Positions 1-50,636 of a stretch of 50,636 nt of DNA are shown one piece after another. Numbering within the stretch: the stretch's first letter is position 1; every line of letters starts with the position of its first letter. Origin of the DNA: Escherichia phage vB_EcoM_50EP; sequence record OR472545.1. One strand, given 5' to 3'. The notes under the pieces are model-generated. The model was not told the DNA's origin, made no database searches, and saw only the letters and a list, made by a program, of their open reading frames with translations. Position numbers and translations under genes: made by a program.

Positions 1-872
1 TATCCGGCGCTGGTCGTCGTGATGGCATTGGCTTGAAGTGTCCGATCGTAATCCACGACAAGGAATCAATTGAATCCGCCAAGCGTGGCGACGCCGCAGA
101 ATTGTCGGTTGGTTACAAGACCAATGACATTCACCGCGAAGGGTGGGGAAACGTCAATACTGGCGAGTATGTTTTCAAGGATGACGCGGAAGGTATGGAG
201 GCGCAATTCCCTAACGGAACTGTCATGACTGATGAATGGGAAGAGTTCGACGTACTGCAAACGAACATCATCCCAAACCACGTTGCCAAGGTAAAGCACG
301 GGCGTGCAGGTATTGCCAGATTAAACCTTGACGGCTCAGAAGAAATTAAATATGATGAGCATGTTCAATTAACCAATGAGGAAAGTAACATGACCGTAAA
401 AATCAAAATTGATTCCGCAGAAGTGGAAGTGTCCAAAGACGTAGCTGACCACATCGGCAAACTGCAAACCGCAGCAGAGCAAGCTGGTGCTAAAGTCGAT
501 GGCCTGCAAGCTGAGCGTGATGCGCTGAAAGCAAAGGTTGACGGCATTCCGGCTCAGATCGAAGCGGCTCTGGCGGAAGCAAAGGAAAAAGCTGACGCGC
601 TGGGCGCTGTTATCGCATTAGCTTCCGGAATGGGTATCAAGTGCGACGGCCTGGACGAGAAAGCTATCAAGCTGGCAGTCATTGACGAAGTTCTCGGCAT
701 TGACGCAAAAGAAAAATCCGACGCATACATTAATCAGTCTTATGAAATCGCACGCGATTCTGATAAGATGGCTGCTCAACGCATTAAAGTGCACGGCGAC
801 AAAGCTGATGGCGCTCAAGGCGGCAAAGATGATGACGCGATTCCTGATCCGCAGGCTCGCTTCCGTAAGTAA
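1..872 (+). CDS. prohead protease/scaffolding protein, C-terminal part (5' end lies at 50378..50636; frame continues across the window junction)
   Basis: ORF open from position 3 in the same phase as 50378..50636 when end is joined to start; Ala/Lys/Glu-rich coiled-coil-like C-terminal half typical of scaffold; sits between head morphogenesis and capsid genes. Confidence 0.45.
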   Translation, partial: SGAGRRDGIGLKCPIVIHDKESIESAKRGDAAELSVGYKTNDIHREGWGNVNTGEYVFKDDAEGMEAQFPNGTVMTDEWEEFDVLQTNIIPNHVAKVKHGRAGIARLNLDGSEEIKYDEHVQLTNEESNMTVKIKIDSAEVEVSKDVADHIGKLQTAAEQAGAKVDGLQAERDALKAKVDGIPAQIEAALAEAKEKADALGAVIALASGMGIKCDGLDEKAIKLAVIDEVLGIDAKEKSDAYINQSYEIARDSDKMAAQRIKVHGDKADGAQGGKDDDAIPDPQARFRK

Positions 873-925: not shown

Positions 926-1438
926 ATGGCACTAATCAAAGCATCTTATACGGTCAACCGTTCAAAGGCATATGCTGGTCAGCTGGCTGACACTTCTCTT
1001 TACAATGTCGACGGTGCTTGCGCTGCGGCTAAATCAGTTAAGGTTGGCGTTGTTGTTGCTCTTGACCCAACCGGAAAGGTAGTCGATGGTCACAAGGTAG
1101 TAACCGACACAATCTCGGCAGAAGCACCGAATCTGGTCGGCGTCGCCATCATGTCGCACGCATACTCTCCCGAAGGGGTTTATGATGAAGGCTCAGCAAT
1201 CAACGTACTGACCAACGGTCGCGCATGGGTACTATGTGCTAAAGACCTGCCGGAAGTTAACAAGGAGTTTAACAAGCAGGTTTTCCTGACAACCTCAGGC
1301 ACTGTGGCGGCAACTGGTATTGGCACCGCGTACACCACTACTGGCGAATGGTTGAAGACTGATGATGAGAACTTCGACATTATCAAAATCCAGGTTACTC
1401 AAGCTCAATTCCAGCTTCCGGCAAGTCCGGCAGCTTAA
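926..1438 (+). CDS. putative head decoration/structural protein
   Basis: 170-aa ORF between scaffold and major capsid genes, followed by strong terminator; position analogous to lambda D. Confidence 0.3.
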   Translation: MALIKASYTVNRSKAYAGQLADTSLYNVDGACAAAKSVKVGVVVALDPTGKVVDGHKVVTDTISAEAPNLVGVAIMSHAYSPEGVYDEGSAINVLTNGRAWVLCAKDLPEVNKEFNKQVFLTTSGTVAATGIGTAYTTTGEWLKTDDENFDIIKIQVTQAQFQLPASPAA

Positions 1439-1591: not shown

Positions 1592-2545
1592 ATGACTATG
1601 AAACTCGACTCTTTCGAACAGAACATGATCACTACTGGTATGCGCCAGCTTGGCGTTAGCGGCAACAAGGCCGACCAGCTTGGCATCTGGACCGTTAAAC
1701 AGATGACTCAGTTGCTTAAGCGTCAGTATGAAGCGGCTTACCCTGAAACTTCCGCTCTGGCTCTGTTCCCTGTCACTACTGAGATTAGCCCGACCGCTAA
1801 CCTGTTCGAATATCTCAAGTTTGACGGCGTGACCATGGCGAAGATTATCGCTGACTACACCGACGACCTGCCGACTGTTGACGCTACTCACAGTCTGGAA
1901 TCTGGTCGAGTTCACCGCCTCGGTAACGCGTGGCTGATTTCTATCGACGAGATCAAAACTGGTGCAGCGCTGGGTTCAAGTTTGTCAGATCGTAAAGCGA
2001 CTCTGGCGCGTGAAGGTCACGAAACACTTGTTAACCAGTTGGTTTTCAAAGGCTCCAAGCCTCACAAAATCATCTCTGTTTTCGACCATCCGAACATTAC
2101 CCGCGTAACCTCTGCCACTGGTGCATGGGCTGACGCAGAGAAAGCAAGCGAAGAACTGACCGACCTGATCGAGAAGATGGAAACCCTGACCAATGGTCAG
2201 CACAAGATCACCGACATCGTAATCCCGCCGTCTCAGCGTAAATTGCTCGCTAAGCGTATGCCGGAAACCACGATGAGCTATCTGGACTGGTTCAAGTCTC
2301 AGAACGGTGGCATCACCATCTCTTCCATCTCCGAACTGGAAGACATCGACGGCGCAGGCACTAAAGCTGTTCTGGCATATGAGAAAGACCCAATGAACAT
2401 GAGTATCGAGATTCCAGAATCTTTCAACATGCTCCCGATGCAGGCGAAGGATTTGCACTTTAAAGTTCCGTGCACCTCCAAGACCACTGGTCTGATCGTA
2501 TATCGCCCACTGACGATTATCATGCTGGTTGGCGTAGGTAAGTAA
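1592..2545 (+). CDS. major capsid protein
   Basis: 317-aa ORF with strong RBS and promoter, position after scaffold/decoration genes, followed by terminator. Confidence 0.6.
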   Translation: MTMKLDSFEQNMITTGMRQLGVSGNKADQLGIWTVKQMTQLLKRQYEAAYPETSALALFPVTTEISPTANLFEYLKFDGVTMAKIIADYTDDLPTVDATHSLESGRVHRLGNAWLISIDEIKTGAALGSSLSDRKATLAREGHETLVNQLVFKGSKPHKIISVFDHPNITRVTSATGAWADAEKASEELTDLIEKMETLTNGQHKITDIVIPPSQRKLLAKRMPETTMSYLDWFKSQNGGITISSISELEDIDGAGTKAVLAYEKDPMNMSIEIPESFNMLPMQAKDLHFKVPCTSKTTGLIVYRPLTIIMLVGVGK

Positions 2546-22278: not shown

Positions 22279-22311
22279 CCAATAAAAAAGGTTGCACCAA
22301 TTATGGCACAA
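22279..22311 (-). terminator. rho-independent terminator after HTH gene
   Basis: on minus strand GGTTGTGCCA-TAAT-TGGTGCAACC + T-run. Confidence 0.55.
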
Positions 22312-22320
22312 CCTTGATTG

Positions 22321-22803: not shown

Positions 22804-22808
22804 CTCAA

Positions 22809-22851
22809 TAGCACTTTTTGTTAAACATTGGTTTCGATGGTTGTTATTATA
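22809..22851 (+). promoter_or_regulatory. TAGCAC-box promoter cassette upstream of helicase, 6 bp from divergent HTH gene start
   Basis: TAGCACTTTTTGTTAAAC ... TATTAT ... TCGAACGAAC. Confidence 0.45.
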
Positions 22852-22887
22852 ACGTCAATCGAACGAACATGAAAGGCATTTAATACT

Positions 22888-24990
22888 ATGGCTATACGCA
22901 TTAAATCCATTAAAAAACAGATAGAAGAACTTGGCCCGCAAAAGATTAAAGAGATTCAGGATAAATTCACATTTGGCGACATGGTTCCTTATGAGTATCA
23001 GTGCGTAATGTATGACGAGATCGGCAAGCGCATTGCTCGCTATAAGCATCCATTCATCGTTAAGGCGTCGGTGTCGGCAGGTAAAACAATCGGCTTTGCC
23101 ATGATCGCATCGCGCGTCAAAGAGATGGGCTTGTCGATGATGATTCTTGCACGCCAGGGCGACATTGTTGCTCAGGATAGTGAAGAGATCTCAAACTTCG
23201 GCGTTCCTAACTCAGTTTATTGCGCTGGCCTGAACACGAAATCAGCTTACTTTCCTATCGTTGTAGGTTCGGAAGGTTCTGTTGCAAATGGTCTGTTTAA
23301 GGCGCTTGGTGACTTTACACCCATGGTTCTTGGGATTGATGAGTGCCACCAGGTGGATTGGGAAGACCTTGCCGCCGCCATCGACAACGAAGAAACGATC
23401 GAGATGATGCTAACTGAAAAAGATGAGCGCGTATTTGTTGACTACCCGAAAAACAGCGAAGGTTATGTCAATGGATACCTTGACGGCGTAGAGGTTGGCG
23501 TCCAGGTGATGGATAAGCAATTGCTGATAAGCCGGAAGACTGGCGAGCCTGTTCTTGGAACAAAACGAAGCCAGTACACGATCATAATCACTGAATTGAT
23601 GCGCCGCTGCAAAGAGAAGAACGGGAAGGAATTACGCATCTTCGGCATGACTGGTTCGGAGTTCAGAGGAACAGCGCCAATTGTTGTCGATAACCCTAAG
23701 CTGCCAGGATTCTGGCGTGAGCAGGTTACTAACATCGACACCAGCTACCTGATTGAGTTCGGCTCTGTTGTTCCAACAATCTTCGGAAGTGTCGGTGACG
23801 CTGGATATGATCTGGATGAGTTTAAGGCGTCAAGTCAGGATGGAACGGCTGACTTTGGTCAGAAAGAAATGAAGGCGATGGAGAAGAAAATCCATGATAA
23901 CGCCAGCATGACCAAGCGAATAATGGGAATGGTAGTCGAAGAGGCGAAGAAGCGAAACGGTGTACTGATTACGTGTTCAGGCCAGCGCCATTGCAAAGAG
24001 GCGGCGAGCTATCTGCCACCTGACGCTACCTATGAGATCATCACGGAGAAGACGAACACCAAAAAACGACAAGCGATACTGGAGGCGGCGAACCGTGGCG
24101 AGATCAAATACATATTCCAGGTGGTAGCGCTAACCACTGGCGTTAACGTTCCGTTTTGGGATTTTTCGGTAATCCTGCGCAAGATCGGCTCACTTACCCT
24201 GCTAATACAGTTGCTTGGTCGAGGTATGCGATTGCTTAAGCCGTGGCAAAAAGCGATGGGAATGGTGAAAGAAGATCACCTGGTATGGGATTTCGCTGGC
24301 ACGATGGATGAGCTTGGTCAGCTTTACTTCGATCCGATTCTTGAAGAGGCTCAGTACCAGCGCCGCTTTGATGGTAAGAAAGAGCCGAAAAAATGTGAAC
24401 TGTGCGGAACCGAGAACAGCTTTTACGCCCGCCGTTGCATTCACAGAGACGAAAACGGCAATCGTTGTGAGTATTTCTGGAAATCTCGAATCTGTGAAGA
24501 CCAGATTGATGATCGCACTGGTGAGGTGATTGTTAAGGGATGTGGCGCTGAGAATGACGTAGTGGCGAGAATATGCCGTTGCTGTGATGTGAGCCTGAAA
24601 GATCCCAATGATAATCTGACTGGTAAGGCTTACACCAAAAACGACTGGTGCACAGTGAATGGTTTTGAAGTAACGCTGACACGCAATCAGACTGGTATTC
24701 TTTATCGTTACGATCTGACAGATTCAGTTGGAGTTAATTTCATCGCGTATGAAAAGTTCTTCCCGCAGTCAACGGCACAGGTATGTCACACGATATGGAA
24801 ACAGAAAGGGGTGCTGCCTCATGTGCATGACAGTAAGATCGCAAAGTTAATGGCAGCTTACAGAAGTGCTAAAATGATTTTAAACAACGCTCACCACATA
24901 GCGCATCCAGTGCGGGTAACTCACCGCAAGAATGCAAAAGGTGAGGACATCATTTCACGTAAGGATTTTGGATTGGACGGTAACTTATGA
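22888..24990 (+). CDS. SF2 DNA helicase
   Basis: Walker A ASVSAGKT, DECH box (GIDECHQ), C-terminal Cys-rich zinc-ribbon-like segment. Confidence 0.7.
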   Translation: MAIRIKSIKKQIEELGPQKIKEIQDKFTFGDMVPYEYQCVMYDEIGKRIARYKHPFIVKASVSAGKTIGFAMIASRVKEMGLSMMILARQGDIVAQDSEEISNFGVPNSVYCAGLNTKSAYFPIVVGSEGSVANGLFKALGDFTPMVLGIDECHQVDWEDLAAAIDNEETIEMMLTEKDERVFVDYPKNSEGYVNGYLDGVEVGVQVMDKQLLISRKTGEPVLGTKRSQYTIIITELMRRCKEKNGKELRIFGMTGSEFRGTAPIVVDNPKLPGFWREQVTNIDTSYLIEFGSVVPTIFGSVGDAGYDLDEFKASSQDGTADFGQKEMKAMEKKIHDNASMTKRIMGMVVEEAKKRNGVLITCSGQRHCKEAASYLPPDATYEIITEKTNTKKRQAILEAANRGEIKYIFQVVALTTGVNVPFWDFSVILRKIGSLTLLIQLLGRGMRLLKPWQKAMGMVKEDHLVWDFAGTMDELGQLYFDPILEEAQYQRRFDGKKEPKKCELCGTENSFYARRCIHRDENGNRCEYFWKSRICEDQIDDRTGEVIVKGCGAENDVVARICRCCDVSLKDPNDNLTGKAYTKNDWCTVNGFEVTLTRNQTGILYRYDLTDSVGVNFIAYEKFFPQSTAQVCHTIWKQKGVLPHVHDSKIAKLMAAYRSAKMILNNAHHIAHPVRVTHRKNAKGEDIISRKDFGLDGNL

Positions 24991-32936: not shown

Positions 32937-32979
32937 AATATACAGGAAAAGCCCCGAAGGGCTTTAGCAATTCGTGCTA
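32937..32979 (-). promoter_or_regulatory. TAGCAC-box promoter cassette (minus)
   Basis: rc: TAGCACGAATTGCTAAAG ... GCCCTTCGGGGC hairpin ... TATATT ... CATCGAAACGAAAC. Confidence 0.45.
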
Positions 32980-33489
32980 TCTTCCATGGTTTTCATGAAA
33001 ACCAAGCCTTGCATTGGCTGACATTCTCATGCATACAGCCTCAAACCAATCTTTTGACGTTCCGAGCTTTATATTTCTCCTTTTTCCACCATCCTTTATC
33101 TCAACCTGAGCCAGCCAAGTGTTTCTATCAGACCTCCACACAACGCCGCACACGCCGCTTTTGTTTAGTGGGCTTTTGCTGAAATTTCTACAATTTCCAG
33201 ATCTGGAAACAAGCCTGTGATTGCTGTCGGAATTGTCATCTCTTATGTGATTTATGTGATCAACCTCCATCCCCTCTGGTATCACGCCGTGCCTCATCTC
33301 CCAAATTATTCTATGATGAGGGTGGCATACTCCGTTAACCTCAGAATAAAGGTATCCATTCATTACATATCCTGCTAAATCGCCAGGTCTTATCTGATTA
33401 TTTCCTCTAATCCAAAAAAGCCTGTCATTCACTAGTTCAAAATGCTTTGTCCAGTCATTACTTATTGCTTTCATAAATCGCTCTCGCAA
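32977..33489 (-). mobile_element. HNH homing endonuclease with AP2-like DNA-binding domain
   Basis: HRIIWEMRHG ... VDHINHIRDDN ... N HNH pattern followed by GVCGVVW...W.A...GK AP2-like segment. Confidence 0.6.
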
Positions 33490-35458: not shown

Positions 35459-35494
35459 GATGATTTCCTTTAGTGCGTGCCGTTTCGATGAGGT

Positions 35495-35538
35495 AATAAT
35501 AGCTAATCACTCCTGATCGGTCATTAGCAAAAAGTGCT
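35495..35538 (-). promoter_or_regulatory. TAGCAC-box promoter cassette (minus)
   Basis: rc: TAGCACTTTTTGCTAATG ... TATTAT ... CATCGAAACGGCAC. Confidence 0.45.
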
Positions 35539-35552
35539 ATTCGTTCGATTTA

Positions 35553-35665
35553 TGGATTGTTGCAGCTATTGCAATGATTAACTTCACTATTGCACATATA
35601 GCAATATTGCATCCTTTGCAATGACGTTTTCGATTGTTGCGAATTGAGCAATGATTCATTGATGG
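35553..35665. repeat. cluster of at least 7 TTGCA(A/T) / GCAATGATT direct and inverted repeats
   Basis: ATTGTTGCAGCTATTGCAATGATTAACTTCACTATTGCACATATAGCAATATTGCATCCTTTGCAATGACG...TTGCGAATTGAGCAATGATTC. Confidence 0.5.
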
Positions 35666-35788
35666 GGGGAATGATGGGGTGAGATCTGATCCCCTGATCG
35701 CCTGGTAGGATTTTCCCGCCACACGTTTCTAGCGCATACGCGTTATGCATGTTATGCTCTGTAGACAAATCCATCCGGCGTGGAATCA

Positions 35789-35905
35789 GGTACGCATATA
35801 ACGCCTATTTACGCTATGGTTACAATAAAATATCCTTATATAACAACCCTTTATCTATATTATTATTATTATTATATATATATGTAGATAATGTAGATAA
35901 GGGAT
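35789..35905. repeat. AT-rich control-region core with GGTTACA motifs and (ATT)n tract; homologous to 16226..16340
   Basis: TTTACGCTATGGTTACAATAAAATATCC...ATTATTATTATTATTATATATATAT alignable with first locus. Confidence 0.5.
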
Positions 35906-36174
35906 ACGAGATATTGCGATAGTTTTCTATGATACATTCTGACACTTGTAAGAATGGGATGACATTGTAGGAATAAAAAGGCATATATGGGGCAATCCTC
36001 CGCGAAATTTGATGTACAAGCTGTACACAGTGGTTACATTGAGCTATATCTGGCCCGAGAGGTCGCAAAACGTAACTAAGTCGAACATTTGCATCAATAA
36101 CACTTGATAACATGTAACCACGCTGGTAATATTGCACCCATCTTAACGAAGACCACCAATCAGGAGTAACATCT

Positions 36175-36696
36175 ATGTCAAATCATAATCAACCCGTAAG
36201 CCTGGGCGATGTCGTCCGCTACATGGCGGAGCAGGCGCTCAAGTCCGAGAACCGCAGCTACCACGTTCCAATCCACCTGATAGCTCGCCAGATGTACGGC
36301 CTCACGGCTGATGATATGGGCAGAATCAATGCCGACGACCTTGAGGCTGGCGGTAAGTACAGCGTTGCAAAGCTGAAAGCCTCGTACGTCTCTAACACGG
36401 TTGCCAGGATGCCAGAGATTCAGGCGGCGAACGTTCGGGCCAAGCTGTCAATCAAGGATGGCGACTTCGGGGATGATGTAGATGTTCGATGTGCTTACAT
36501 CACCCTGGTTGATGGTGCGATCCAGACCGGAACACGACACAAGGGTGACGCGGAAAAGGAGGCGGTCATCGTTGAAAGGTTCAAGTCTCGGTTGCTCAAG
36601 ATCACACCGAACGTCATCGACCTGCAAGGTGAGCAGAAAGAAGGTGCGCTCATTGCCCTGGCTCGCTACCATGAAATGATCAAGGATACTAAATGA
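36175..36696 (+). CDS. hypothetical early protein
   Basis: 173-aa ORF, first gene after AT-rich region, RBS AGGAG. Confidence 0.45.
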   Translation: MSNHNQPVSLGDVVRYMAEQALKSENRSYHVPIHLIARQMYGLTADDMGRINADDLEAGGKYSVAKLKASYVSNTVARMPEIQAANVRAKLSIKDGDFGDDVDVRCAYITLVDGAIQTGTRHKGDAEKEAVIVERFKSRLLKITPNVIDLQGEQKEGALIALARYHEMIKDTK

Positions 36697-41887: not shown

Positions 41888-42340
41888 ATGAAAAGGATTG
41901 ATGAACTTGTAATTATTACATCATTAGAGACTGATGATTGCATAGATTGGACTTACGCAAAAACAAGAGATGGATACGGCCAGGTTAGATATCGTGGGGC
42001 AACCAGAAGGGCGCACAAGGTATCATACTGCATGTCAAATGGAATTGACTATGAGGATGTAAAAGGTGTTGTAATGCACTCATGCGATAATCCTTGTTGT
42101 GTAAACCCAAGACACCTAACAGTTGGCACTCAGCATGAAAATATTATTGATTGCGTCTCAAAGGGTAGATTTAGAAGTGTGGAGGGCATTAAGAATCCAA
42201 GGTCGATAGTGTCAAACTCTGACGCAGAGAAAATGCGCTCAATGAGGGAGATTGGAATGACTTATGGTGATATAGCGAAAAGCATGGGCGTTGGAAAATC
42301 AACGGCGTATAGAGTAATAACAACTGGATACTTATCATGA
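41888..42340 (+). mobile_element. HNH homing endonuclease with C-terminal HTH-like segment
   Basis: DGYGQV...HK..Y......V.HSCDNPCCVNPRHL..GT..EN pattern; markedly AT-rich relative to flanks. Confidence 0.55.
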
Positions 42341-42876
42341 ATCAGCTTTACACAATGATTAAACACCATATAGAAACATCATACAATAACAAGCCTGTTT
42401 ACTGTTTTGACTACGACGGCACGCTGTCGGACGGATCGCATCGCTTGCACAGGTTGCCGACAAAGGATTTGCACCTTACCGAGTCATGGTCTGAGTTCAA
42501 TAGATTGTCAATACATGATGAACCTATCGAATCAACCATTCAGGTGATGAATAGCCTGTTTGACTCAGGCGCGTTCATCATCATTCTAACAGGGCGTTCA
42601 GATGAGGTATGTGAGATTTCAACTCAATGGCTTCATGATGCTGGCGCAAAATATAACGTCATGGTAATGCGGCAGGCGAGAGACAATCGCAAAGACACTC
42701 TCATCAAAGAGGAGTTCTTGCGTTACATTGGCTTGCACCGCATCACCGCAGCGTGGGATGATAGCCCTAATGTTATCGCGCACTTCCGAAGCCTGCGAAT
42801 CACCACCTATCAAGTGTGTGACTATGGCGATAAGCTCCATGCCGGAGTAGGATCACACGGCGTGCATAATAAGTGA
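42337..42876 (+). CDS. HAD-superfamily phosphatase
   Basis: DxDGT motif (FDYDGTL) near N-terminus, ILTGRS motif II-like. Confidence 0.5.
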   Translation: MNQLYTMIKHHIETSYNNKPVYCFDYDGTLSDGSHRLHRLPTKDLHLTESWSEFNRLSIHDEPIESTIQVMNSLFDSGAFIIILTGRSDEVCEISTQWLHDAGAKYNVMVMRQARDNRKDTLIKEEFLRYIGLHRITAAWDDSPNVIAHFRSLRITTYQVCDYGDKLHAGVGSHGVHNK

Positions 42877-42996
42877 CGATATACGAACATATATTCAGCA
42901 GCAGGGGTATTGATATGCTCCTGCATTATGTAGACAAAAAATACGCAAACCTCATGCTTAAGACGCATGGTGGAAAAATAAAGAGGATTAAAGTAA

Positions 42997-43629
42997 ATGG
43001 CTAAAATTATCATTCTCAACGGTCCAGCTTCGGTTGGTAAAGACACGATCGGCAACGCGCTCGCAGCGGATTACAACTGCATCCCTACCAGCTTCAAGCG
43101 TCCGATGTTTGAGATTGCAGCATCAATCCTTGGTGCCAGGGCTTTCTCAAAGTTCATCACCGCATACGACGACCGCGATCAGAAAGAGCAGCCTCAGAGC
43201 TTTCTCGGTGGCAAGACCTGCCGTGAGTTCATGATCTGGATTAGCGAAACAGTGGTCAAGCCGCTTTTTGGCAATCAGCAGTTCGGCAAATTGATGAGCG
43301 AGCATATCCAACTGTGTGATCAAGGTTTCTGTTTTGTGTGTACTGATGGCGGCTTCCCTGATGAAGTGATCCAACTCCTTGAAGATGGTCACGATGTCAC
43401 CCTGGTTCGCCTGTTCATGGATGGCAAGACTTTCGATGGCGATAGCCGTGATTACATTCGTCTTAAGGAATTGTACTACCCTTATTACAAGAAATATAGC
43501 GAGCATGATGTGCATCTGGTGAATGGTGATATTTATGGCGGCGTCCTGGCGGTTGCTGAGGCTTGCGGTATTAGCTCACAAGTTCCAGAGGTTGATGTTT
43601 ACGAGTGGGAAGATGGATTACCATGGTAA
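42997..43629 (+). CDS. P-loop kinase (nucleotide or polynucleotide kinase-like)
   Basis: Walker A GPASVGKDT at residues 9-17; about 210 aa; adjacent to HAD phosphatase. Confidence 0.45.
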   Translation: MAKIIILNGPASVGKDTIGNALAADYNCIPTSFKRPMFEIAASILGARAFSKFITAYDDRDQKEQPQSFLGGKTCREFMIWISETVVKPLFGNQQFGKLMSEHIQLCDQGFCFVCTDGGFPDEVIQLLEDGHDVTLVRLFMDGKTFDGDSRDYIRLKELYYPYYKKYSEHDVHLVNGDIYGGVLAVAEACGISSQVPEVDVYEWEDGLPW

Positions 43630-43630
43630 A

Positions 43631-43673
43631 TAGCACGAATTGCTAAACCAGCTCCGGCGGGTTTTGTTATAGT
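43631..43673 (+). promoter_or_regulatory. TAGCAC-box promoter cassette
   Basis: TAGCACGAATTGCTAAAC ... TTGTTATAGT. Confidence 0.4.
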
Positions 43674-43702
43674 TAGCTCACACCAAACGAGAGGAAGGCA
43701 AG

Positions 43703-43861
43703 ATGATTACTATCAACCTGTCAGATAAGCAAGCCGCCACACTGAAACAGTTACTGGCCAGTCAGACTATGCAGTGCTCAGCCGATGAGTTCTCTGAGAT
43801 GGTCAAAGAGGTTCGCACTCAGATCAACAATCAGCAATTCGACGAAAACGAAGGGGAATAA
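43703..43861 (+). CDS. small hypothetical protein (52 aa, below track threshold)
   Basis: manually read ORF with RBS GAGGAAGG. Confidence 0.3.
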   Translation: MITINLSDKQAATLKQLLASQTMQCSADEFSEMVKEVRTQINNQQFDENEGE

Positions 43862-43863
43862 CC

Positions 43864-44262
43864 ATGAAATTACGTTGCGTTAAAATACATCCAGGGTTAG
43901 CGCCGCTGCTCGAAGATCACTTTCAGGTTGGTCATGTGTACGAAGCTAAACGCAGGCCAAACCGCCACCTCAACGTGGCTGATGTTATTGATGTGGATAA
44001 CGGCCTTACTTGGTACGCCATCCAGAAAGGCAGTAAGTTTAACCTGAATCTCGCAAGCGGCAAAGCAGTCACTTTCGCGGTAGTAAAAGGTCCGCGCCGC
44101 TTAGTAGTGACGGAAAAACGTGTAACTGGCGTCCTTAATGATAAGCGTAAGTTCCGCCGTATGTGTCGCCAGTATGGAAAGCTGCGATTCACCGAGCCTG
44201 GGATGTTCTGCTTCATCGCCTTTGCGGCAATGAAAAAGAATGCACGTAATCACCAGCGATAG
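43864..44262 (+). CDS. hypothetical basic protein
   Basis: 132-aa ORF. Confidence 0.4.
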   Translation: MKLRCVKIHPGLAPLLEDHFQVGHVYEAKRRPNRHLNVADVIDVDNGLTWYAIQKGSKFNLNLASGKAVTFAVVKGPRRLVVTEKRVTGVLNDKRKFRRMCRQYGKLRFTEPGMFCFIAFAAMKKNARNHQR

Positions 44263-44302
44263 CACTTTTTGTTAAAACTCAGAATCGGGGTGGCTGTATA
44301 GT
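44260..44302 (+). promoter_or_regulatory. TAGCAC-box promoter cassette
   Basis: TAGCACTTTTTGTTAAAA ... GGGGT...TGTATAGTTACCCC ... CATCGAAACGAACG. Confidence 0.5.
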
Positions 44303-44332
44303 TACCCCATCGAAACGAACGAGGAAGCAGAA

Positions 44333-44545
44333 ATGAAAATTGAAATTATCGACGTAGATTACCAGGTAGATACGGAAGTTCTCACACTGCGTGACTGTGG
44401 TTTCCAGGTTGGAGATGTAGTCGAGGTCTCTGGTTATTACCTTGATGGAGACCTTTCAATTCAGGCAATCCGTGAGACTGAGTTAGTGAATGTCGGCAAT
44501 GAAATCAGTATTAGCGAGCATGAATATAAGGTGATCGAAGAATGA
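44333..44545 (+). CDS. small acidic protein
   Basis: 70 aa, about 27% Asp+Glu. Confidence 0.35.
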   Translation: MKIEIIDVDYQVDTEVLTLRDCGFQVGDVVEVSGYYLDGDLSIQAIRETELVNVGNEISISEHEYKVIEE

Positions 44546-44736
44546 GCAAGGTGAAGATTAAGAGTGATGGAGCCGATCTTTATCTGCTCACCTCGCGAGC
44601 AAAGTATTACGGCGTGAAAGATGGTGATGAGCTTGACGTTATCACCGGATCTGTTGGTGGCACTATCACCGTTAGCAAGAAAGGCGGGTATCAGTTTATC
44701 TTACTGCCTGGCGAATACGAAGAGGTTAAACAATGA
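44542..44736 (+). CDS. hypothetical protein
   Basis: 64-aa ORF, ATGA-coupled. Confidence 0.35.
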   Translation: MSKVKIKSDGADLYLLTSRAKYYGVKDGDELDVITGSVGGTITVSKKGGYQFILLPGEYEEVKQ

Positions 44737-45059
44737 TTTACATTCACACTTACGGAGTCGGCAAATTTGGCAAAGAGATTCGCCGGACCGTTCACGAAAC
44801 GAAGGAATCAGCCGAAGCGGCACAGAAAGTTCTCGGCGGTGAGTTCAAGGCTTACCGCGAAGCGGAGGACTCGGTTGAATGCTGGCAGGTTGAGCACATG
44901 CGTAACGTTCTGGAAAGTGAGGTGTCAGAACTTATCGACAACATGACATGTCACGGCCCTGGCGGACCATGGGAAGAACCAGGCTCACCGGAATGGGATT
45001 GCGCCAAGGTTGACACAATGAACAAGATCAGCGAAATCATTGATGAGGTGCACGAATAA
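44733..45059 (+). CDS. hypothetical protein
   Basis: 108-aa ORF, ATGA-coupled. Confidence 0.4.
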   Translation: MIYIHTYGVGKFGKEIRRTVHETKESAEAAQKVLGGEFKAYREAEDSVECWQVEHMRNVLESEVSELIDNMTCHGPGGPWEEPGSPEWDCAKVDTMNKISEIIDEVHE

Positions 45060-45298
45060 TGTTTGGATTAACTGATCCGCAAATGAACGCAGTAAAGGCA
45101 AAGGCCAAGCAATTAAACGCAGCGTATGCCGATCTGAGCAAGAAAGATCGCAAAGATGATAAGCTGGTCGCATCAATTATTACCAAGCACCATGAGGCCG
45201 TGGCGACCATTATATCGCGTGACAAATTTGTGTGGATTGCTGGTTATCTTAAGGGGCTGGTTGGAAAACGTGAAAACGGAGATAGCATCTATGAGTAA
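45059..45298 (+). CDS. hypothetical protein
   Basis: 79-aa ORF. Confidence 0.35.
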   Translation: MFGLTDPQMNAVKAKAKQLNAAYADLSKKDRKDDKLVASIITKHHEAVATIISRDKFVWIAGYLKGLVGKRENGDSIYE

Positions 45299-45485
45299 GA
45301 TCAAGAAGGGTGACGTGATCAAGTGTATCGGCGCGCGCGGTTATGAGTTCTTTACTGGCTGCGAGTACACAGTGGAAAAAGTTGATTCCCAGGGATACGT
45401 TTACGTCTACAGTGACGAGGGGAACAAGGTCGCGATCGACTACCCTGTTTGCCCGACGTATGGAACTTTTAAAAAAGTTGATTGA
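45291..45485 (+). CDS. hypothetical protein
   Basis: ATG 45291 overlapping upstream stop; track N-terminal extension rejected. Confidence 0.3.
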   Translation: MSKIKKGDVIKCIGARGYEFFTGCEYTVEKVDSQGYVYVYSDEGNKVAIDYPVCPTYGTFKKVD

Positions 45486-45669
45486 CAGCCATCTCACTGA
45501 CTGGTATCTTTAATCTCGTAAACAGACGAGGCCACCAAGTGGTAACGAGCGGTTCGTAAGCCGCAAATTGAAATAGCGCATCGCCAAAAGCAAAGTGTAA
45601 GTCGCAAAAAATCGGGGCATTGTGAAAGCCCGCCGGACTCCGTAACCGGACCTAACAATGAGGTTTGAT

Positions 45670-45855
45670 ATGTTTGAGGTCAAGCTAACTATTTTGCTAA
45701 TGGGGCGCACATGCGCATCTTGTAAGCAAAACTTTGAAGCAAAGGTTGAGGCCAGTAGCGCCGAAGAGGCCGTTTCAAAGGTGAAGGAAATGATCGGAGT
45801 CGATACAACGACTCATAAATTTTTAGTTAATTATGTAAGGGGTATTTCATGCTGA
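45670..45855 (+). CDS. hypothetical Cys-containing small protein
   Basis: ATG 45670 preceded by GAGG. Confidence 0.3.
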   Translation: MFEVKLTILLMGRTCASCKQNFEAKVEASSAEEAVSKVKEMIGVDTTTHKFLVNYVRGISC

Positions 45856-46070
45856 CGTTTATTTATGGTTTTATTTTCGCTTCCGTCCTGATCATCTCGT
45901 TATCTTGCGCCTGGATTGCCAAGCTAATCAAGCGCGGGCAATTCGCTCAAGCGCGATACGATGAGAAGAAAAAGCAGTGGCGAGTATCCGGCAAGTTTAT
46001 CTCTGTGTTTAACGAGATTAACGACATTCGATCGGGGCGGAAGCCTGGGGCCATCAAATACGTTGACTGA
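45849..46070 (+). CDS. small membrane protein
   Basis: N-terminal TMD then basic tail. Confidence 0.35.
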   Translation: MLTFIYGFIFASVLIISLSCAWIAKLIKRGQFAQARYDEKKKQWRVSGKFISVFNEINDIRSGRKPGAIKYVD

Positions 46071-46077
46071 TTCATTT

Positions 46078-46103
46078 AAGCATCCTTCGGGGTGCTTTTT
46101 TTA
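46078..46103 (+). terminator. rho-independent terminator
   Basis: AAGCATCC-TTCG-GGGTGCTT + T7. Confidence 0.6.
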
Positions 46104-46109
46104 TGCCTG

Positions 46110-46125
46110 CAATCTGGTATAATTC
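46110..46125 (+). promoter_or_regulatory. extended -10 promoter (TGGTATAAT) for packaging genes
   Basis: CAATCTGGTATAATTC upstream of terminase small subunit. Confidence 0.35.
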
Positions 46126-46152
46126 ATTCCTATTCAACAAGGGGAAACAACT

Positions 46153-46689
46153 ATGAAAGACGAAAACTTCACCAGTCACGCGAACGAGAAGGTTCGAATC
46201 GGTAACTTCAAAGAGCTATACAATAAAAAGTATGGCGACATTGCCAACCTGAACCATCGTCACCCAATGACGCCTGAGACTGTATTCAACCTTGCGGTTA
46301 AATATTTCTCATGGGCCGAGGATCAGGCAATTAAGGCAATCGAAACGGCGAGCTTCCAGGGCGTTGTCACTGAGAACCTAGTGCACAAGCCGCGAGTGTT
46401 CACGCTCAACGGCTTCCAGCTTTATTGCGGCGTTACCTCCGGTGCGATCCAAAGCTGGCGCGCGTCGCCTGGATTCTCTGAGGTAATGGAGTTCATCGAC
46501 TCAGTAATTATTGAACAGAAATATCAGTTAGCTGCGTCCAACCTTATCAACGCAGGATTCGTAGGCAAAGACATTGGTATCGACAAGGCGGCAGAAGTGA
46601 ACGTGCAGAACAACGTATCTGCTGGCGCGGTGTCCGTGACTACTGATGAATTTAAAGAAGCCGTTAAGGATATTTTGGGGGAATTATGA
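46153..46689 (+). CDS. terminase small subunit
   Basis: 178-aa ORF immediately upstream of and overlapping the large terminase. Confidence 0.55.
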   Translation: MKDENFTSHANEKVRIGNFKELYNKKYGDIANLNHRHPMTPETVFNLAVKYFSWAEDQAIKAIETASFQGVVTENLVHKPRVFTLNGFQLYCGVTSGAIQSWRASPGFSEVMEFIDSVIIEQKYQLAASNLINAGFVGKDIGIDKAAEVNVQNNVSAGAVSVTTDEFKEAVKDILGEL

Positions 46690-48272
46690 TCCAGTGGGAA
46701 GATCTCGACCTTGCAAGAAAGCAGGCAATAAAGGCGCTCTCTGAGCAGTCATTCGAAAAGATGTTACGAATCTGGTTCCAGATCGGGCAGGCTCAGAAGT
46801 TCCAAAGCAACTGGCACTTCACTTACCTTTGCTGGAAGGTTGAGCAGATCATCAAAGGCGAGGCTCAGAACGTGATATTCAACATCACGCCAGGTTCCGG
46901 CAAAACTGAGATCTTCTCCATCCACATGCCAGTGTACGGGATGTTAAAGAGTCCGAAGGTTCGAAATTTGAACCTTTCGTTCTCTGACAGTCTGGTGAAG
47001 GATAACGGGATCAGGACGCGTGAGATTATCGGTTGCGATGAGTTCCAGGAGCTATGGCCTACCAAACTGGCTAAGGCGTCCGGTGGCGATATTACCGCAC
47101 TGAACGATAACGATAAGGCGTGGCTGACGTTAACATCACGTGCGATCGGCGGCCAGGTAACTGGTAAGCGTGGCGGGTACATGGAAGACCCCAGTAAACC
47201 CTGGAGCTTTACCGGAATGTTAACGCTTGATGACCCCGACAAACCGAAAGACATGTATTCGTCCGTTAAGCGCAAGGCGGCTCATACACTGCTAAAAAAC
47301 ACCGTGCGATCACGTCGTATGACTGACAGGACGCCATGCGTTGTTGTGCAGCAGCGACTGCACGTTAACGACTCGACGTGGTTCCTGATGAATGGCGGTA
47401 TGGGTGGCATGAAGTTTGAGCAGGTAATCATTCCGGCGCTGGTAACTGAGGAATACAGAGACACGCTTCCTGACTGGTTGAAAGAGGAATTTGATAAAGA
47501 CGTGCTATCGTCCCCGTCGGTAATGATTGACGGTGTTGAGCACTTCTCTTTCTGGCCTGCGAAGGAAAGCGCAGAAAGCCTACTGGCGTTGCGCGAAGCT
47601 GACCTGTACACCTTCGAGTCTCAGTATCAGCAGAAGCCCATTGCGCTTGGTGGCAATGCGTTTAAGTCGGACTGGTTCCAGTATTACGGCGACGGCGAGA
47701 AAGCCAATATGCCAAAACCGGATCGCTTCGAATACCTTTTTACCACTGCGGATACTGCGCAGAAGGCCGAGGAAATTCACGACTACAGCGTCTTTGTTTT
47801 GTGGGGCAAGTATAAGGATCGCGTATATTTCATCGACGGCATTCGCGGTAAGTGGGAAGCGCCGGACCTTGAGACGATGGCCCTTAACTTTTATGGCAAC
47901 TGCTTTAAGTGGGCGAAGGAGAACAAGACGTCATTACGCAAGGTTTACATTGAAGACAAGGCGAGCGGTACGGGCCTGATCCAGTCAATTAACAAGAAGC
48001 TCCCGATTGACATCACGCCAGTGCAGCGAGATACCGACAAGGTTACGCGTGCAATGGACGCAGCGCCAATCATGAAAGCAGGGCGAATCGTTTTTCCTGA
48101 ATCTCACCCAATGCTTACTGAAATGGAAGCGGAACTGGTAGGCTTCACCTTTGATGATAGCCATCCTCACGATGATATAGTGGATAACGTGGTTGATGCT
48201 GGAAACTTCGAAATGAACTTGCTTGATGATCCGGTAGCACGAATGAAACGATTAGCGGGAATGCGCAAATAA
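46686..48272 (+). CDS. terminase large subunit
   Basis: 528 aa; P-loop-like GSGKTE and C-terminal acidic nuclease-like region; followed by portal. Confidence 0.7.
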   Translation: MIQWEDLDLARKQAIKALSEQSFEKMLRIWFQIGQAQKFQSNWHFTYLCWKVEQIIKGEAQNVIFNITPGSGKTEIFSIHMPVYGMLKSPKVRNLNLSFSDSLVKDNGIRTREIIGCDEFQELWPTKLAKASGGDITALNDNDKAWLTLTSRAIGGQVTGKRGGYMEDPSKPWSFTGMLTLDDPDKPKDMYSSVKRKAAHTLLKNTVRSRRMTDRTPCVVVQQRLHVNDSTWFLMNGGMGGMKFEQVIIPALVTEEYRDTLPDWLKEEFDKDVLSSPSVMIDGVEHFSFWPAKESAESLLALREADLYTFESQYQQKPIALGGNAFKSDWFQYYGDGEKANMPKPDRFEYLFTTADTAQKAEEIHDYSVFVLWGKYKDRVYFIDGIRGKWEAPDLETMALNFYGNCFKWAKENKTSLRKVYIEDKASGTGLIQSINKKLPIDITPVQRDTDKVTRAMDAAPIMKAGRIVFPESHPMLTEMEAELVGFTFDDSHPHDDIVDNVVDAGNFEMNLLDDPVARMKRLAGMRK

Positions 48273-48280
48273 TGTATAAT

Positions 48281-48307
48281 GGCTAGGCTAACAACCTAGC
48301 CTTTTTT
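48281..48307 (+). terminator. rho-independent terminator
   Basis: GCTAGG-CTAACAA-CCTAGC + T6. Confidence 0.55.
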
Positions 48308-48323
48308 ATTGGGAGAAAAACAG

Positions 48324-49586
48324 ATGAGTAAAAAAAGCGTTAAGACCGACTCTTACAACAAGACGTTTAAGGGTGAAGGTACGGCAGGCGGCGCGCTTGC
48401 ATCGCTATACGATCAGATGTATGTGACGCAGTTTTACATTGATGATCCTATGGCTAAGAAAATTGTCGATGTTATTCCAGAGGAAATGGTTTTCCCTGGA
48501 TTCGGCCTGGACGGGGTGAAGGATGAGAAGGCGTTCAAATCTTTGTGGGATGGCATGAAGCTGAACAAGCAGATTGTCGAGGCGTTCTCATGGGAGCGGC
48601 TTTATGGTGGTTCCGCTATCGTTGCCGTCGTCCGTGACAACCGACTCCTGACATCACCAATCAAGGAAGGTGCGCAGCTTGAATCAATCCGAGTGTACGA
48701 GAAAGAGCAGATCCGCATCAAGGACCGCGAGAAGAACGCACGCAACCCTCGCTATGGTATGCCGAAGATTTACACCATTAACCCTGGCGGCAGCGTACCG
48801 GAATACGACGTACACTACACGCGAATCTATGTTAACGGCGGCGAGCGCGTACCTAACTCACTTCGCGCGCAGAATAACGATTGGGGCGCATCGGTGCTGA
48901 GTAAGGGCTTGATTGACGCCATCCTGGACTACAACTACTGTGAAGAACTGGCGACTCAGCTATTGCGCCGTAAGCAGCAAGGCGTATGGAAAGCAAAAGG
49001 ACTGGCTGATTTGTGCGACGATGACGAAGGGCGTTACGCGGCTCGACTGCGATTAGCTCAGGTTGATGACAATAGCGGCGTAGGCCGGACGATTGGCATT
49101 GATGCCACCGACGAAGAATACGACGTCCTTAACTCAGACATTGGCGGCGTTGATGCTTTCCTTGATAAGAAGATGGACCGCATCGTCAACTACTCGCAGA
49201 TTCATGAGATTATCCTCAAGAATAAGAACGTAGGCGGCGTGTCAGCGAGCCAGAACACAGCGCTTGAGACTTTCTATAAGATGATTGATCGCAAGCGTAA
49301 CGAGTATTACAGGCCTCTTCTGGAGTGGCTGGTTCCTATGATTATTCAGGAAGATGAATGGTCAATCCGCTTTGAGCCGTTATCAATGCCAAGCGAGAAA
49401 GAGCAGTCCGAGACGTTGAAGAATAACGTTGAGTCAATCTCAAAGCTGGTGGCGGATCAGGTCATTGACCGAGACGAAGCGCGTGATACACTTGAGGCGA
49501 TCGCAGACTTTATCAAGATTCAAGGCCCAGCGCCGGAGCTTGAAGAAATCGAACCAACTAACCCGCAGGTGAACAACGAGGAATAA
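48324..49586 (+). CDS. portal protein
   Basis: about 420 aa directly after terminase; track TTG start at 48309 replaced by ATG 48324 with RBS GGAGAAAAA. Confidence 0.6.
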   Translation: MSKKSVKTDSYNKTFKGEGTAGGALASLYDQMYVTQFYIDDPMAKKIVDVIPEEMVFPGFGLDGVKDEKAFKSLWDGMKLNKQIVEAFSWERLYGGSAIVAVVRDNRLLTSPIKEGAQLESIRVYEKEQIRIKDREKNARNPRYGMPKIYTINPGGSVPEYDVHYTRIYVNGGERVPNSLRAQNNDWGASVLSKGLIDAILDYNYCEELATQLLRRKQQGVWKAKGLADLCDDDEGRYAARLRLAQVDDNSGVGRTIGIDATDEEYDVLNSDIGGVDAFLDKKMDRIVNYSQIHEIILKNKNVGGVSASQNTALETFYKMIDRKRNEYYRPLLEWLVPMIIQEDEWSIRFEPLSMPSEKEQSETLKNNVESISKLVADQVIDRDEARDTLEAIADFIKIQGPAPELEEIEPTNPQVNNEE

Positions 49587-49588
49587 TC

Positions 49589-50368
49589 ATGAAGGTTAAC
49601 GGCATTGTAAATCAATGGAGTTACCCCGAAGCAAGCGAGCGGCAGCTTAGCCGCTCATTGTCAACCTTAGCAGGCGAGATGGCAAAGAAGGCCAGATCGC
49701 TTACTGGCGGGATGAGGTTCGACGCTTCGGACGAAGAAATCAATGACGCAGAAAGTGAGCTTGAGGAATACGCTGCCGTACTGATCGCGGCGATTGTTGC
49801 TACACTTCCTGCGATGGCCCTAACTATCTATAAGTTCAACTCAAAGCAATTTCTCAACGTGGCAAAGAAAGCAGGTGGCGGAAAGAATCAATCTGTAATA
49901 TTGCTTGGTGCGCTTGGGGCAAACGCCAATGAGTCGTGGTATAGAGAGAAGTCATCTCAATGGCGAGGTTCTGCTGAGGCGAGTATTCTAAAGTTAGCGA
50001 GAGACATCATCTCTGACTGGTCGCAAAACCTCCGAGTGGAAAACGTGCGCAATAAAACCAGTCAGCAGATTGATGAAGTTTTAAAGCAGCGCTACAAGGT
50101 GTATACTGGCTGGACCGTGAATCGCTCACGTGGAATCGTGTCCACATGGAACAGCGTACTGATGCGCCAGCGACTTGATGATGCTGGAGTAACTCACTAT
50201 TTCTGGCATGGTAAACTGGACGAGCGCGAGCGATTGCAGCACGTAAAATGGGAAGGTAAACGCATTGAGATCTCAGATGACCATCCGTTCCCTGGAGAGC
50301 CTTACGGTTGCAGATGCTGGGCCGTACCTGATTTCTCAACCAGCAAACAATCACAATTAATCACATAA
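49589..50368 (+). CDS. head morphogenesis protein (Mu F / SPP1 gp7-like)
   Basis: 259 aa after portal; C-terminal GEPYGCRCWAVPDF-type motif. Confidence 0.5.
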   Translation: MKVNGIVNQWSYPEASERQLSRSLSTLAGEMAKKARSLTGGMRFDASDEEINDAESELEEYAAVLIAAIVATLPAMALTIYKFNSKQFLNVAKKAGGGKNQSVILLGALGANANESWYREKSSQWRGSAEASILKLARDIISDWSQNLRVENVRNKTSQQIDEVLKQRYKVYTGWTVNRSRGIVSTWNSVLMRQRLDDAGVTHYFWHGKLDERERLQHVKWEGKRIEISDDHPFPGEPYGCRCWAVPDFSTSKQSQLIT

Positions 50369-50377
50369 GGGTAATAT

Positions 50378-50636
50378 ATGACCACTAAGCAACGATACGA
50401 TAGCGTGCAACTGAAAGCACGCTTTGACTCTAACGGATTCATGCATGATGAGCCAATCATTGCACGAATCGGTATTCAGGAATATATGCGTGCCGATGGA
50501 ACAATGCAGCGTGAGTTCCGACCAGCAAACGAAGTGTTCAAGGCCGAGGCGATGGAACTGTTTCGCGGTATGCCGATCGTAGAGGGCCACCAGGAAGTAA
50601 GCACAAGCAACGCGCGAAAGATTGTTGTCGGCTCAC
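50378..50636 (+). CDS. prohead protease/scaffolding protein, N-terminal part (continues at 1..872 across the window junction)
   Basis: ORF runs off the window end; phase matches open frame at positions 3..872. Confidence 0.45.
   Translation, partial: MTTKQRYDSVQLKARFDSNGFMHDEPIIARIGIQEYMRADGTMQREFRPANEVFKAEAMELFRGMPIVEGHQEVSTSNARKIVVGS

What the first reader, a model, noticed from the sequence alone, without database searches (positions are those of the whole stretch)
50378..50636. Window is a circularly closed genome: protease/scaffold reading frame continues from window end into window start
The ORF starting at 50378 runs off the end with one extra base. Joining that base to positions 1-2 gives a codon (CTA) in phase with the open frame at 3..872, for a roughly 377-aa protein. 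Together with the complete set of packaging, head, tail, replication, lysis and early genes, this indicates a complete phage genome linearised arbitrarily within a gene, as expected for a circularly permuted, headful-packaging phage assembly.
Basis: seen in the sequence. Interest (0 to 1): 0.45.

Follow-up and report, generated by a model that had tools for sequence, protein, structure and literature searches.

The report
Complete T1-like phage genome, cut mid-gene
The window is one complete copy of a T1-like E. coli phage genome whose sequence record happens to start and end inside the capsid-maturation protease gene; this is an ordinary by-product of assembling such phages, and its main effect is that the gene is mis-annotated in the record.

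Summary
Observation and interpretation both hold. The ATG at 50378 opens a frame that leaves one base at the window end. C(50636)+TA(1-2) makes CTA, in phase with 3..872, giving a 376-aa ORF.

Homology is continuous across the join:
- PHROG 530 'head maturation protease' matches aa 1-375 in one stretch (E 8e-99), and Pfam DUF2213 covers aa 16-134, across junction residue 87.
- TH27 bases 14119|14120 equal window 50636|1, with no gap.
- The exact 376-aa protein is encoded internally on at least 24 independent metagenome contigs. One of them aligns over 16.8 kb at 97.5% straight across the join.

The window is a rotated, collinear, unit-length Drexlerviridae (Nouzillyvirus-like) genome with no terminal repeat.

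Headful packaging is inferred, not shown. TerS is P22-gp3-like, TerL is 62% identical to that of T1, and pac/headful packaging is published for T1, TLS, MSK and Chapo. The likely pac region lies near 35.55-35.70 kb, about 15 kb upstream of the boundary.

The window is probably GenBank phage vB_EcoM_50EP. There the split gene appears as a 279-aa TTG-start 'hypothetical protein' lacking the invariant His71.

This is ordinary and of low interest. A side lead is a conserved internal SD+ATG (378-392) that may give a nested scaffold protein.

The parts
50378..50636 (+). 5' part of the prohead protease/scaffold gene: codons 1-86 plus the first base of codon 87. It includes the invariant His71 codon (50588-50590).
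1..872 (+). 3' part of the same gene: the last two bases of codon 87, codons 88-376, and stop TAA at 870-872. It includes the invariant Ser122 (105-107) and His180 (279-281) codons.
378..392 (+). Internal in-frame GAGGAA Shine-Dalgarno sequence (378-383) and ATG (390-392, Met217). It sits at the boundary between the protease domain and the helical C-terminal domain and is a candidate nested scaffold start (inferred).
   Evidence: (PHROG 36941 starts at aa 217)
33..872 (+). Truncated 279-aa TTG-start ORF. It is identical to WNO25441.1 'hypothetical protein' of Escherichia phage vB_EcoM_50EP and is an annotation artefact of the linearisation.
49589..50368 (+). Head-morphogenesis / minor capsid gene (Mu F-like), directly upstream of the split gene.
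926..1438 (+). Capsid cement/decoration protein gene, directly downstream of the split gene.
1592..2545 (+). Major capsid protein gene.
46153..46689 (+). Small terminase, Pfam GP3_package (P22 gp3-like). 56% identical to T1 TerS.
46686..48272 (+). Large terminase. 62% identical to T1 TerL.
48309..49586 (+). Portal protein (Phage_portal_3).
35540..35700 (+). Predicted pac region: a conserved block of about 30-nt TTGTTGC/TTGCAATGA repeats in the 700-bp non-coding divergent region. The ESCO41, XT34 and Rtp records start here, and the published MSK PhageTerm start maps to about 35,690 (inferred).
   Evidence: PMC8421802

Best explanation
The window is exactly one unit length (50,636 bp) of a virulent T1-like siphophage genome (Drexlerviridae, Nouzillyvirus-like). 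It is very probably the GenBank record of Escherichia phage vB_EcoM_50EP.

Virions of this group carry terminally redundant, partially permuted DNA. It is cut from concatemers by a pac-initiated headful terminase. Reads therefore assemble into a circle, and the assembler or submitter opened that circle at an arbitrary point.

Here the opening fell inside codon 87 of the prohead protease/scaffold gene. It lies between the invariant His71 (at the window end) and the invariant Ser122 and His180 (at the window start). Joining the ends restores a 376-aa protein with three parts: an N-terminal protease domain of the T4-gp21/herpesvirus-assemblin fold (aa ~13-186), a disordered linker, and a helical scaffold-like C-terminal domain (aa 218-351).

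Shown: the join, its homology continuity, genome completeness and collinearity, and the fold assignment on a predicted model.

Inferred: the headful mechanism, the pac location near 35.55-35.70 kb, the catalytic role of His71/Ser122, and the scaffold role of the C-terminal domain.
For: Join and phase.

Continuity across the join:
- PHROG 530, aa 1-375, E 8e-99.
- Pfam DUF2213, aa 16-134, 91.6 bits against a cut-off of 22.
- ESCO41 protease aligns 1-375 in one HSP at 91.5%.
- T1 protease aligns 1-368 in one HSP.
- All of the 120 best homologues listed are 329-399 aa long, and nearly all cover 99-100% of the query.
- The exact 376-aa sequence occurs on at least 24 contigs and is internal in all five loci inspected.
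- DNA alignments cross the join without gaps: TH27, ESCO41, L007 and L009; L011 over 16.8 kb at 97.5%.

Unit length and collinearity:
- Window 42337-50636 matches TH27 5873-14119, and window 1-10787 matches TH27 14120-24901.
- Gene-by-gene transfer from ESCO41.
- No terminal direct repeat of 8-400 nt.
- Relatives are 49-52 kb long.

Packaging type:
- TerS matches Pfam GP3_package.
- TerL is 62% and TerS 56% identical to those of T1.
- The T1 record annotates a 2.8-kb terminal repeat region at its start.
- pac/headful packaging is reported for TLS and T1 (PMC11447400), Chapo (PMC7471380) and MSK (PMC8421802).
- The MSK start maps to window ~35,690.

Protein:
- AF2 domains.
- Invariant H71, S122 and H180 in 51 homologues.

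Identity of the record: WNO25441.1, 279 aa, on a 50,636-bp contig, equals window 33-872.
Against: - No sequencing reads or virion DNA data for this phage were available, so terminal redundancy, permutation and the pac cut are not demonstrated for it.
- No packaging experiment on any Nouzillyvirus was found.
- For one relative (SU57) no submolar pac fragment was seen (PMC7718038).
- The T1 record start does not align to the window's non-coding region, apart from an 18-nt dispersed motif. The pac mapping therefore rests on MSK and on where relatives' records begin.
Confidence: 0.92

Rival explanations
1. The genome is complete and closes on itself, but the phage packages by fixed direct terminal repeats or cos ends rather than by headful packaging. 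Circular assembly would look the same.
For: Closure alone cannot tell the modes apart. No reads were available. The SU57 study saw no submolar pac fragment (PMC7718038). The MSK PhageTerm result was class 'unknown' with a single forward terminus (PMC8421802).
Against: TerS belongs to the P22 gp3 family. TerL and TerS are 62% and 56% identical to those of T1, a phage with experimentally established pac-headful packaging (Ramsey & Ritchie 1983, cited in PMC11447400). TLS and Chapo data agree (PMC11447400, PMC7471380). SU57 DNA showed no cos behaviour (PMC7718038).
Confidence: 0.06
2. The window boundary is a real physical genome end, or the record is incomplete with bases missing or duplicated at the join.
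For: The source record is linear, and the gene there is annotated as a truncated ORF.
Against: TH27 positions 14119 and 14120 match window 50636 and 1. 180 nt around the join align without gaps to four sequences. The exact joined protein occurs in at least 24 other contigs. There is no terminal duplication. A physical end here would split an essential gene between its invariant His and Ser.
Confidence: 0.01
3. The window is a slice of a longer molecule (a prophage in a chromosome, or a concatemer contig) and only looks closed by coincidence.
For: None found.
Against: The whole window is collinear with complete virulent Drexlerviridae genomes of 49-52 kb and has no host flanks. The authors of the ESCO41 study found no integrase or excisionase gene in ESCO41 (PMC10269720), and no integrase appears in the gene transfer. 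A slice of exactly one unit length that joins to the base is what a trimmed circular assembly gives.
Confidence: 0.01

Closest known systems
Escherichia phage T1 / TLS / Rtp group (Drexlerviridae): pac-initiated headful packaging with terminal redundancy and partial circular permutation
   Same: Same gene order. TerS is P22-gp3-like, TerL is 62% identical to that of T1, and the protease is 48.5% identical. There is a divergent non-coding region where relatives' records and the mapped pac start lie.
   Different: Only 31% one-way intergenomic similarity to T1. No packaging experiment exists for this phage or its genus. The T1 pac-proximal sequence does not align with the window.
Nouzillyvirus (type: vB_EcoS_ESCO41, NC_047820); also TH27 and P817
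   Same: Collinear genomes. One-way similarity is 0.70 (ESCO41) and 0.78 (TH27, P817). Most proteins are 85-100% identical.
   Different: Below 95% similarity to all of them, so a different species-level lineage. The window lacks ESCO41's HNH and EndoVII homing endonucleases, its Rha gene and its tRNA-Arg, and carries its own HNH at 32977-33489. The tail-fibre C-terminus is unrelated. Their records are opened near pac. This one is opened in the protease gene.
T4 gp21 prohead protease and herpesvirus assemblin (serine proteases sharing one fold)
   Different: No detectable sequence similarity to any solved structure. The protein belongs to the Pfam family DUF2213/PF09979. It carries a fused C-terminal helical domain.
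Protease-scaffold arrangements: phage P2 gpO (fused protease + scaffold) and lambda C/Nu3 (scaffold nested in frame in the protease gene). Recalled from my own knowledge.
   Different: The protease fold family is not that of lambda gpC (ClpP/SppA-like, from memory). Internal initiation and scaffold function are untested here.

Membership tests
Unit-length circular assembly of a terminally redundant phage genome | Record end and start are contiguous in independent sequences, with no base missing or extra | tested here: met
   TH27 14119|14120 equals window 50636|1. Gapless 180-nt alignments to 4 sequences. L011 aligns over 16.8 kb at 97.5% across the join.
Unit-length circular assembly of a terminally redundant phage genome | A gene interrupted by the record boundary is restored by joining, with continuous homology | tested here: met
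   376-aa ORF. PHROG 530 covers aa 1-375. The exact protein occurs on at least 24 contigs.
Unit-length circular assembly of a terminally redundant phage genome | Complete gene set, collinear with complete relatives after rotation, with no leftover terminal duplication | tested here: met
   No 8-400 nt terminal direct repeat.
pac-type headful packaging (T1/P22-like) | Terminase subunits orthologous to those of phages with experimentally shown pac-headful packaging | tested here: met
   TerS matches Pfam GP3_package at 34.4 bits, above the 29.4 cut-off. TerL is 62% and TerS 56% identical to those of T1.
pac-type headful packaging (T1/P22-like) | Virion DNA terminally redundant and (partially) permuted; submolar pac fragment or a read pile-up at pac | not testable with these tools
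   No reads or virion DNA. Only literature on relatives is available (PMC11447400, PMC7471380, PMC8421802, PMC7718038).
pac-type headful packaging (T1/P22-like) | An identifiable pac site | tested here: inconclusive
   A conserved repeat block at 35550-35656 aligns to MSK just upstream of its published PhageTerm start. T1's own start does not align.
Drexlerviridae, genus Nouzillyvirus | At least 70% intergenomic nucleotide similarity to genus members (ICTV genus criterion, from my own knowledge) | tested here: met
   Approximate one-way similarity is 0.70 to ESCO41 and 0.78 to TH27 and P817. The value for the type phage is borderline, and the method only approximates VIRIDIC.
Prohead serine protease, DUF2213/PF09979 (gp21/assemblin fold) | Pfam family hit above the gathering score | tested here: met
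   91.6 bits against 22.
Prohead serine protease, DUF2213/PF09979 (gp21/assemblin fold) | Fold shared with T4 gp21 and herpesvirus assemblin | tested here: met
Prohead serine protease, DUF2213/PF09979 (gp21/assemblin fold) | Conserved catalytic His and Ser | tested here: met
   H71, S122 and H180 are invariant in 51 homologues down to 49% identity. Their spatial proximity was not measured.
Prohead serine protease, DUF2213/PF09979 (gp21/assemblin fold) | Proteolytic processing of capsid proteins | not testable with these tools
   Only indirect evidence: the T1 and TLS major capsid proteins are N-terminally cleaved (PMC11447400).
Nested or fused protease-scaffold gene (lambda C/Nu3, P2 gpO type) | C-terminal scaffold domain | tested here: met
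Nested or fused protease-scaffold gene (lambda C/Nu3, P2 gpO type) | Separate translation of the C-terminal part from an internal in-frame start | tested here: inconclusive
   Met at 217 in 43 of 51 homologues, plus Met at 219 in 7 more. GAGGA lies 7-9 nt upstream and is conserved to T1. PHROG 36941 starts at aa 217. There are no protein data.

The most novel reading that the evidence does not exclude
The DUF2213 prohead protease gene of T1-like phages may contain a nested, in-frame scaffold gene. On this reading, translation from the conserved GAGGA + ATG at window 378-392 (Met217) yields a ~160-aa helical scaffold protein in excess over the full-length protease-scaffold fusion, as with lambda C/Nu3. 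This product is not annotated in the T1, ESCO41 or P817 records. The internal SD is a better match than the one before the full-length start.
Probability: 0.4. Interest if true: 0.25.

Novelty: already known. Interest (0 to 1): 0.08.

Why it matters
There is little biological news. Circular assembly and arbitrary opening of pac/headful phage genomes is routine, and the phage belongs to a described genus.

The practical value is curation:
- As opened, the record splits an essential head gene. The public annotation then carries a 279-aa TTG-start 'hypothetical protein' that lacks the first 97 residues, including the invariant His71, and the 86-codon 5' part at the other end of the record is left separate.
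- Rotating the record to the conventional T1-type start (about window 35,560) would restore the gene. It would also make the genome directly comparable with ESCO41, T1 and Rtp.

Tried and rejected
- Sequence search of the joined protein and of TerL against PDB chains gave nothing meaningful.
I used the 99%-identical homologue P0001 with a 51-sequence alignment instead.
- Aligning the T1 record's first 700 nt and last 400 nt to the window found only an 18-nt dispersed motif, so pac could not be mapped from T1.
- No tRNA gene was found in the window.
- A literature search for vB_EcoM_50EP found nothing. The Nouzillyvirus description paper has no packaging data. PMC12803255 was read for T1 protease or scaffold information and was irrelevant. 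A search on DUF2213 gave no functional study.
- Rejected readings: a chance in-phase ORF, a true physical end at the boundary, missing or duplicated bases at the join, and a prophage or concatemer slice (see the rival explanations).

Full report
**1. The observation**

The sequence shows an ATG at 50378-50380, just after the TAA of the preceding gene (50366-50368). From 50378 to the last base there are 259 nt, which is 86 codons plus one base. That base (C) plus window bases 1-2 (TA) forms CTA. The frame starting at base 3 is the only open frame at the window start and runs to TAA at 870-872. At both ends the other two forward frames are broken by many stops. The window has no direct terminal repeat of 8-400 nt.

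**2. Is the join real?**

Profile searches:
- The joined protein matches PHROG 530 ('head maturation protease') in one uninterrupted stretch, aa 1-375 (E 8e-99).
- It matches Pfam DUF2213/PF09979 over aa 16-134, at 91.6 bits against a cut-off of 22.
- Both matches cross junction residue 87.

Comparison with public phage records:
- A 3-kb query made of the last and first 1.5 kb of the window matched Escherichia virus TH27 in one piece at 93.2%, inside that record.
- Whole-genome BLAST shows window 42337-50636 matching TH27 5873-14119, and window 1-10787 matching TH27 14120-24901. The window's last and first bases are therefore neighbours in TH27.
- 180 nt centred on the join align without any gap to ESCO41 (90.6%), TH27 (96.1%), an IMG/VR contig (99.4%) and a Logan contig (92.2%).
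- The IMG/VR contig carries the exact 47-mer across the join.

Protein-level evidence:
- The ESCO41 protease (375 aa) aligns 1-375 in one HSP at 91.5%.
- The T1 protease aligns 1-368 in one HSP at 48.5%.
- A database search returned 491 homologues. The 120 best listed are 329-399 aa long, and nearly all cover 99-100% of the query.
- The exact 376-aa sequence is present in the public collection. It lies on at least 24 contigs from independent metagenomes.
- In all five loci inspected it is an internal gene, flanked by the same head-morphogenesis and cement genes that sit at the window's two ends.
- One such contig aligns over 16.8 kb at 97.5% straight across the join.

The join is therefore exact.

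**3. What the window is**

- The closest records are Drexlerviridae of the genus Nouzillyvirus: ESCO41 (the type phage), TH27, P817 and others of 49-52 kb.
- Approximate one-way intergenomic similarity is 0.70 to ESCO41, 0.78 to TH27 and P817, and 0.31 to T1.
- Transfer of the ESCO41 annotation finds counterparts for the following (Pfam support):
  - packaging and head: terminase small and large subunits, portal, head morphogenesis, protease, cement and major capsid proteins;
  - tail: neck and tail proteins, tape measure, the tail tip L/K/I/J proteins and the lateral fibre;
  - recombination and replication: RecE-like exonuclease, Erf, primase, two helicases, two methyltransferases and a repair exonuclease;
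  - lysis and early genes: holin, endolysin, spanin and most small early genes.
- Missing are only the homing endonucleases (HNH, EndoVII), the Rha gene, tRNA-Arg and a few small ORFs.
- The window is thus a rotated, complete, unit-length genome.

One member of the protein cluster is NCBI WNO25441.1, 'hypothetical protein [Escherichia phage vB_EcoM_50EP]'. It is 279 aa long, lies on a contig of 50,636 bp (the window's length), and is identical to the TTG-start ORF at window 33-872. The window is therefore very probably that GenBank record. Because of the linearisation, the gene is annotated there as a truncated hypothetical protein.

**4. Packaging and where real ends should be**

This part is inferred.
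- TerS matches Pfam GP3_package, the P22 gp3 family.
- TerL and TerS are 62% and 56% identical to those of T1.
- The T1 reference record starts with an annotated 2.8-kb repeat region.
- TLS and T1 package by a pac-initiated headful mechanism. It gives three or four partially permuted, terminally redundant genome variants (PMC11447400).
- Chapo, a Tunavirus, has a pac cut at position 68/69 of a record aligned to the reference start (PMC7471380).
- PhageTerm on MSK gave a forward start at 36,862 (PMC8421802).

Mapping to the window:
- The MSK position aligns to window ~35,690. It lies just after a block conserved between MSK, ESCO41, TH27 and the window.
- That block consists of ~30-nt repeats with TTGTTGC/TTGCAATGA cores at 35550-35656.
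- It sits in a ~700-bp non-coding region between divergent transcription units.
- The ESCO41 and XT34 records begin at window 35,560, and the Rtp record begins at ~35,600.

The expected pac end is thus about 15 kb upstream of the window boundary. With redundancy steps of about 1-3 kb in a series of three or four headfuls (TLS and T1 figures, PMC11447400), the boundary is not expected to be a preferred physical end. No packaging data exist for any Nouzillyvirus. Circular closure by itself would also arise from direct terminal repeats, so I keep a small rival for that.

**5. The gene itself**

- An AlphaFold2 model was built for a 99%-identical homologue with a 51-sequence alignment. Mean pLDDT is 74.
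- The model has a confident N-terminal α/β domain (aa ~13-186, pLDDT mostly 80-90), a disordered linker (187-217), and a C-terminal β-hairpin plus long helices (218-351).
- The top Foldseek hits are the same proteases, but with weak E-values.
- His71, Ser122 and His180 are invariant in all 51 aligned homologues. The window boundary at residue 87 separates His71 from Ser122 and His180.
- 'Protease/scaffold' is therefore a fair description. Catalysis and scaffolding remain inferred.

A side observation concerns Met217:
- Met217 is present in 43 of 51 homologues, and in 7 more it is shifted to position 219.
- GAGGA lies 7-9 nt upstream, and this is conserved even in T1.
- A separate PHROG (36941, 162 positions) begins exactly at residue 217.

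This suggests a nested in-frame scaffold product, as in lambda C/Nu3 (my own knowledge). It is untested.

**6. Comparison with known systems and verdict**

Everything here is a known kind of thing. It is a T1-like phage of a described genus, with a typical circular assembly opened at an arbitrary point. Headful packaging is inferred from homology, and T1-type permutation is partial and starts at a pac site. The consequence is a curation problem, namely a split and mis-annotated protease gene. Interest is low.

Noticed in passing
window 1525, 17641, 22807, 32326, 35524, 38519, 39849, 40925, 41810, 44258 (plus weaker matches at 7989 and 32964): An 18-nt motif, TTA[A/G]CAAAAAGTGCTAT[C/T], occurs 12 times (up to 3 mismatches) against 0.04 expected by chance. 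Most copies appear to lie between genes. The same motif sits at T1 record positions 99-122. The TLS paper reports 18 intergenic 21-nt repeats (PMC11447400). It is probably a family-wide regulatory element. Its function is unknown.
   Followed up: partly
window 35460-36175: A ~700-bp non-coding region lies between divergent transcription units. It has three ~30-nt repeats (35550-35656) with TTGTTGC/TTGCAATGA cores, a TGATGGGG(G/T)GA doublet (35660-35682) and an AT-rich (TTA)n/(TA)n stretch (35860-35900). It is conserved to phage MSK (Braunvirinae), and several relatives' records start here. It is a candidate pac and/or origin region.
   Followed up: partly
window 50368/50378 and 32977-33489 (-): Homing-endonuclease presence/absence polymorphism. 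ESCO41, CJ19 and metagenome contig L014, and probably TH30 (a gapped match in an unannotated record), carry an HNH/AP2 gene inserted between the head-morphogenesis and protease genes, exactly where the window has a 9-nt spacer. The window instead has its own HNH_3 ORF at 32977-33489, which is absent at that site in ESCO41.
   Followed up: partly
window 50349-50636 and 1-~295: The first ~185 codons of the protease gene (the protease domain) cannot be aligned at DNA level with P817, XT34, p111 or GaoY1-9D, although the flanks are >90% identical. This is a mosaic allele swap of the protease domain within the genus.
   Followed up: no
window 33-872 (GenBank WNO25441.1): The public record (Escherichia phage vB_EcoM_50EP) annotates the split gene as a 279-aa TTG-start hypothetical protein. 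The 'M' (myovirus) in the phage name also sits oddly with a lambda-like siphovirus tail module (major tail protein, tape measure, L/K/I/J) and Drexlerviridae relatives.
   Followed up: partly
L005/L006 (P817, MZ826699) 1-1367 vs 49385-50751; L003/L004 (TH27) 3-263 vs ~51944-52205: Two relatives' public 'complete genome' records carry uncollapsed terminal duplications. P817 has the large-terminase region twice, with two TerL CDS annotated. TH27 has ~260 nt of the non-coding region (window 35615-35885) at both ends.
   Followed up: no
window 18905-20820 (-): About 1.9 kb at the C-terminal end of the 778-aa lateral tail-fibre gene has no DNA match in ESCO41, TH27 or P817, and only the N-terminal 141 aa match the ESCO41 protein. 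It is a swapped receptor-binding module.
   Followed up: no
window 45612-45670: ESCO41 has a tRNA-Arg(TCT) between homologous small ORFs at this position. ARAGORN finds no tRNA anywhere in the window.
   Followed up: partly
window 22888-24990 (+): The window has a single 700-aa helicase ORF. In ESCO41 the corresponding region is split into two ORFs followed by an HNH endonuclease gene, and identity is only ~50%. It is a divergent replication module.
   Followed up: no
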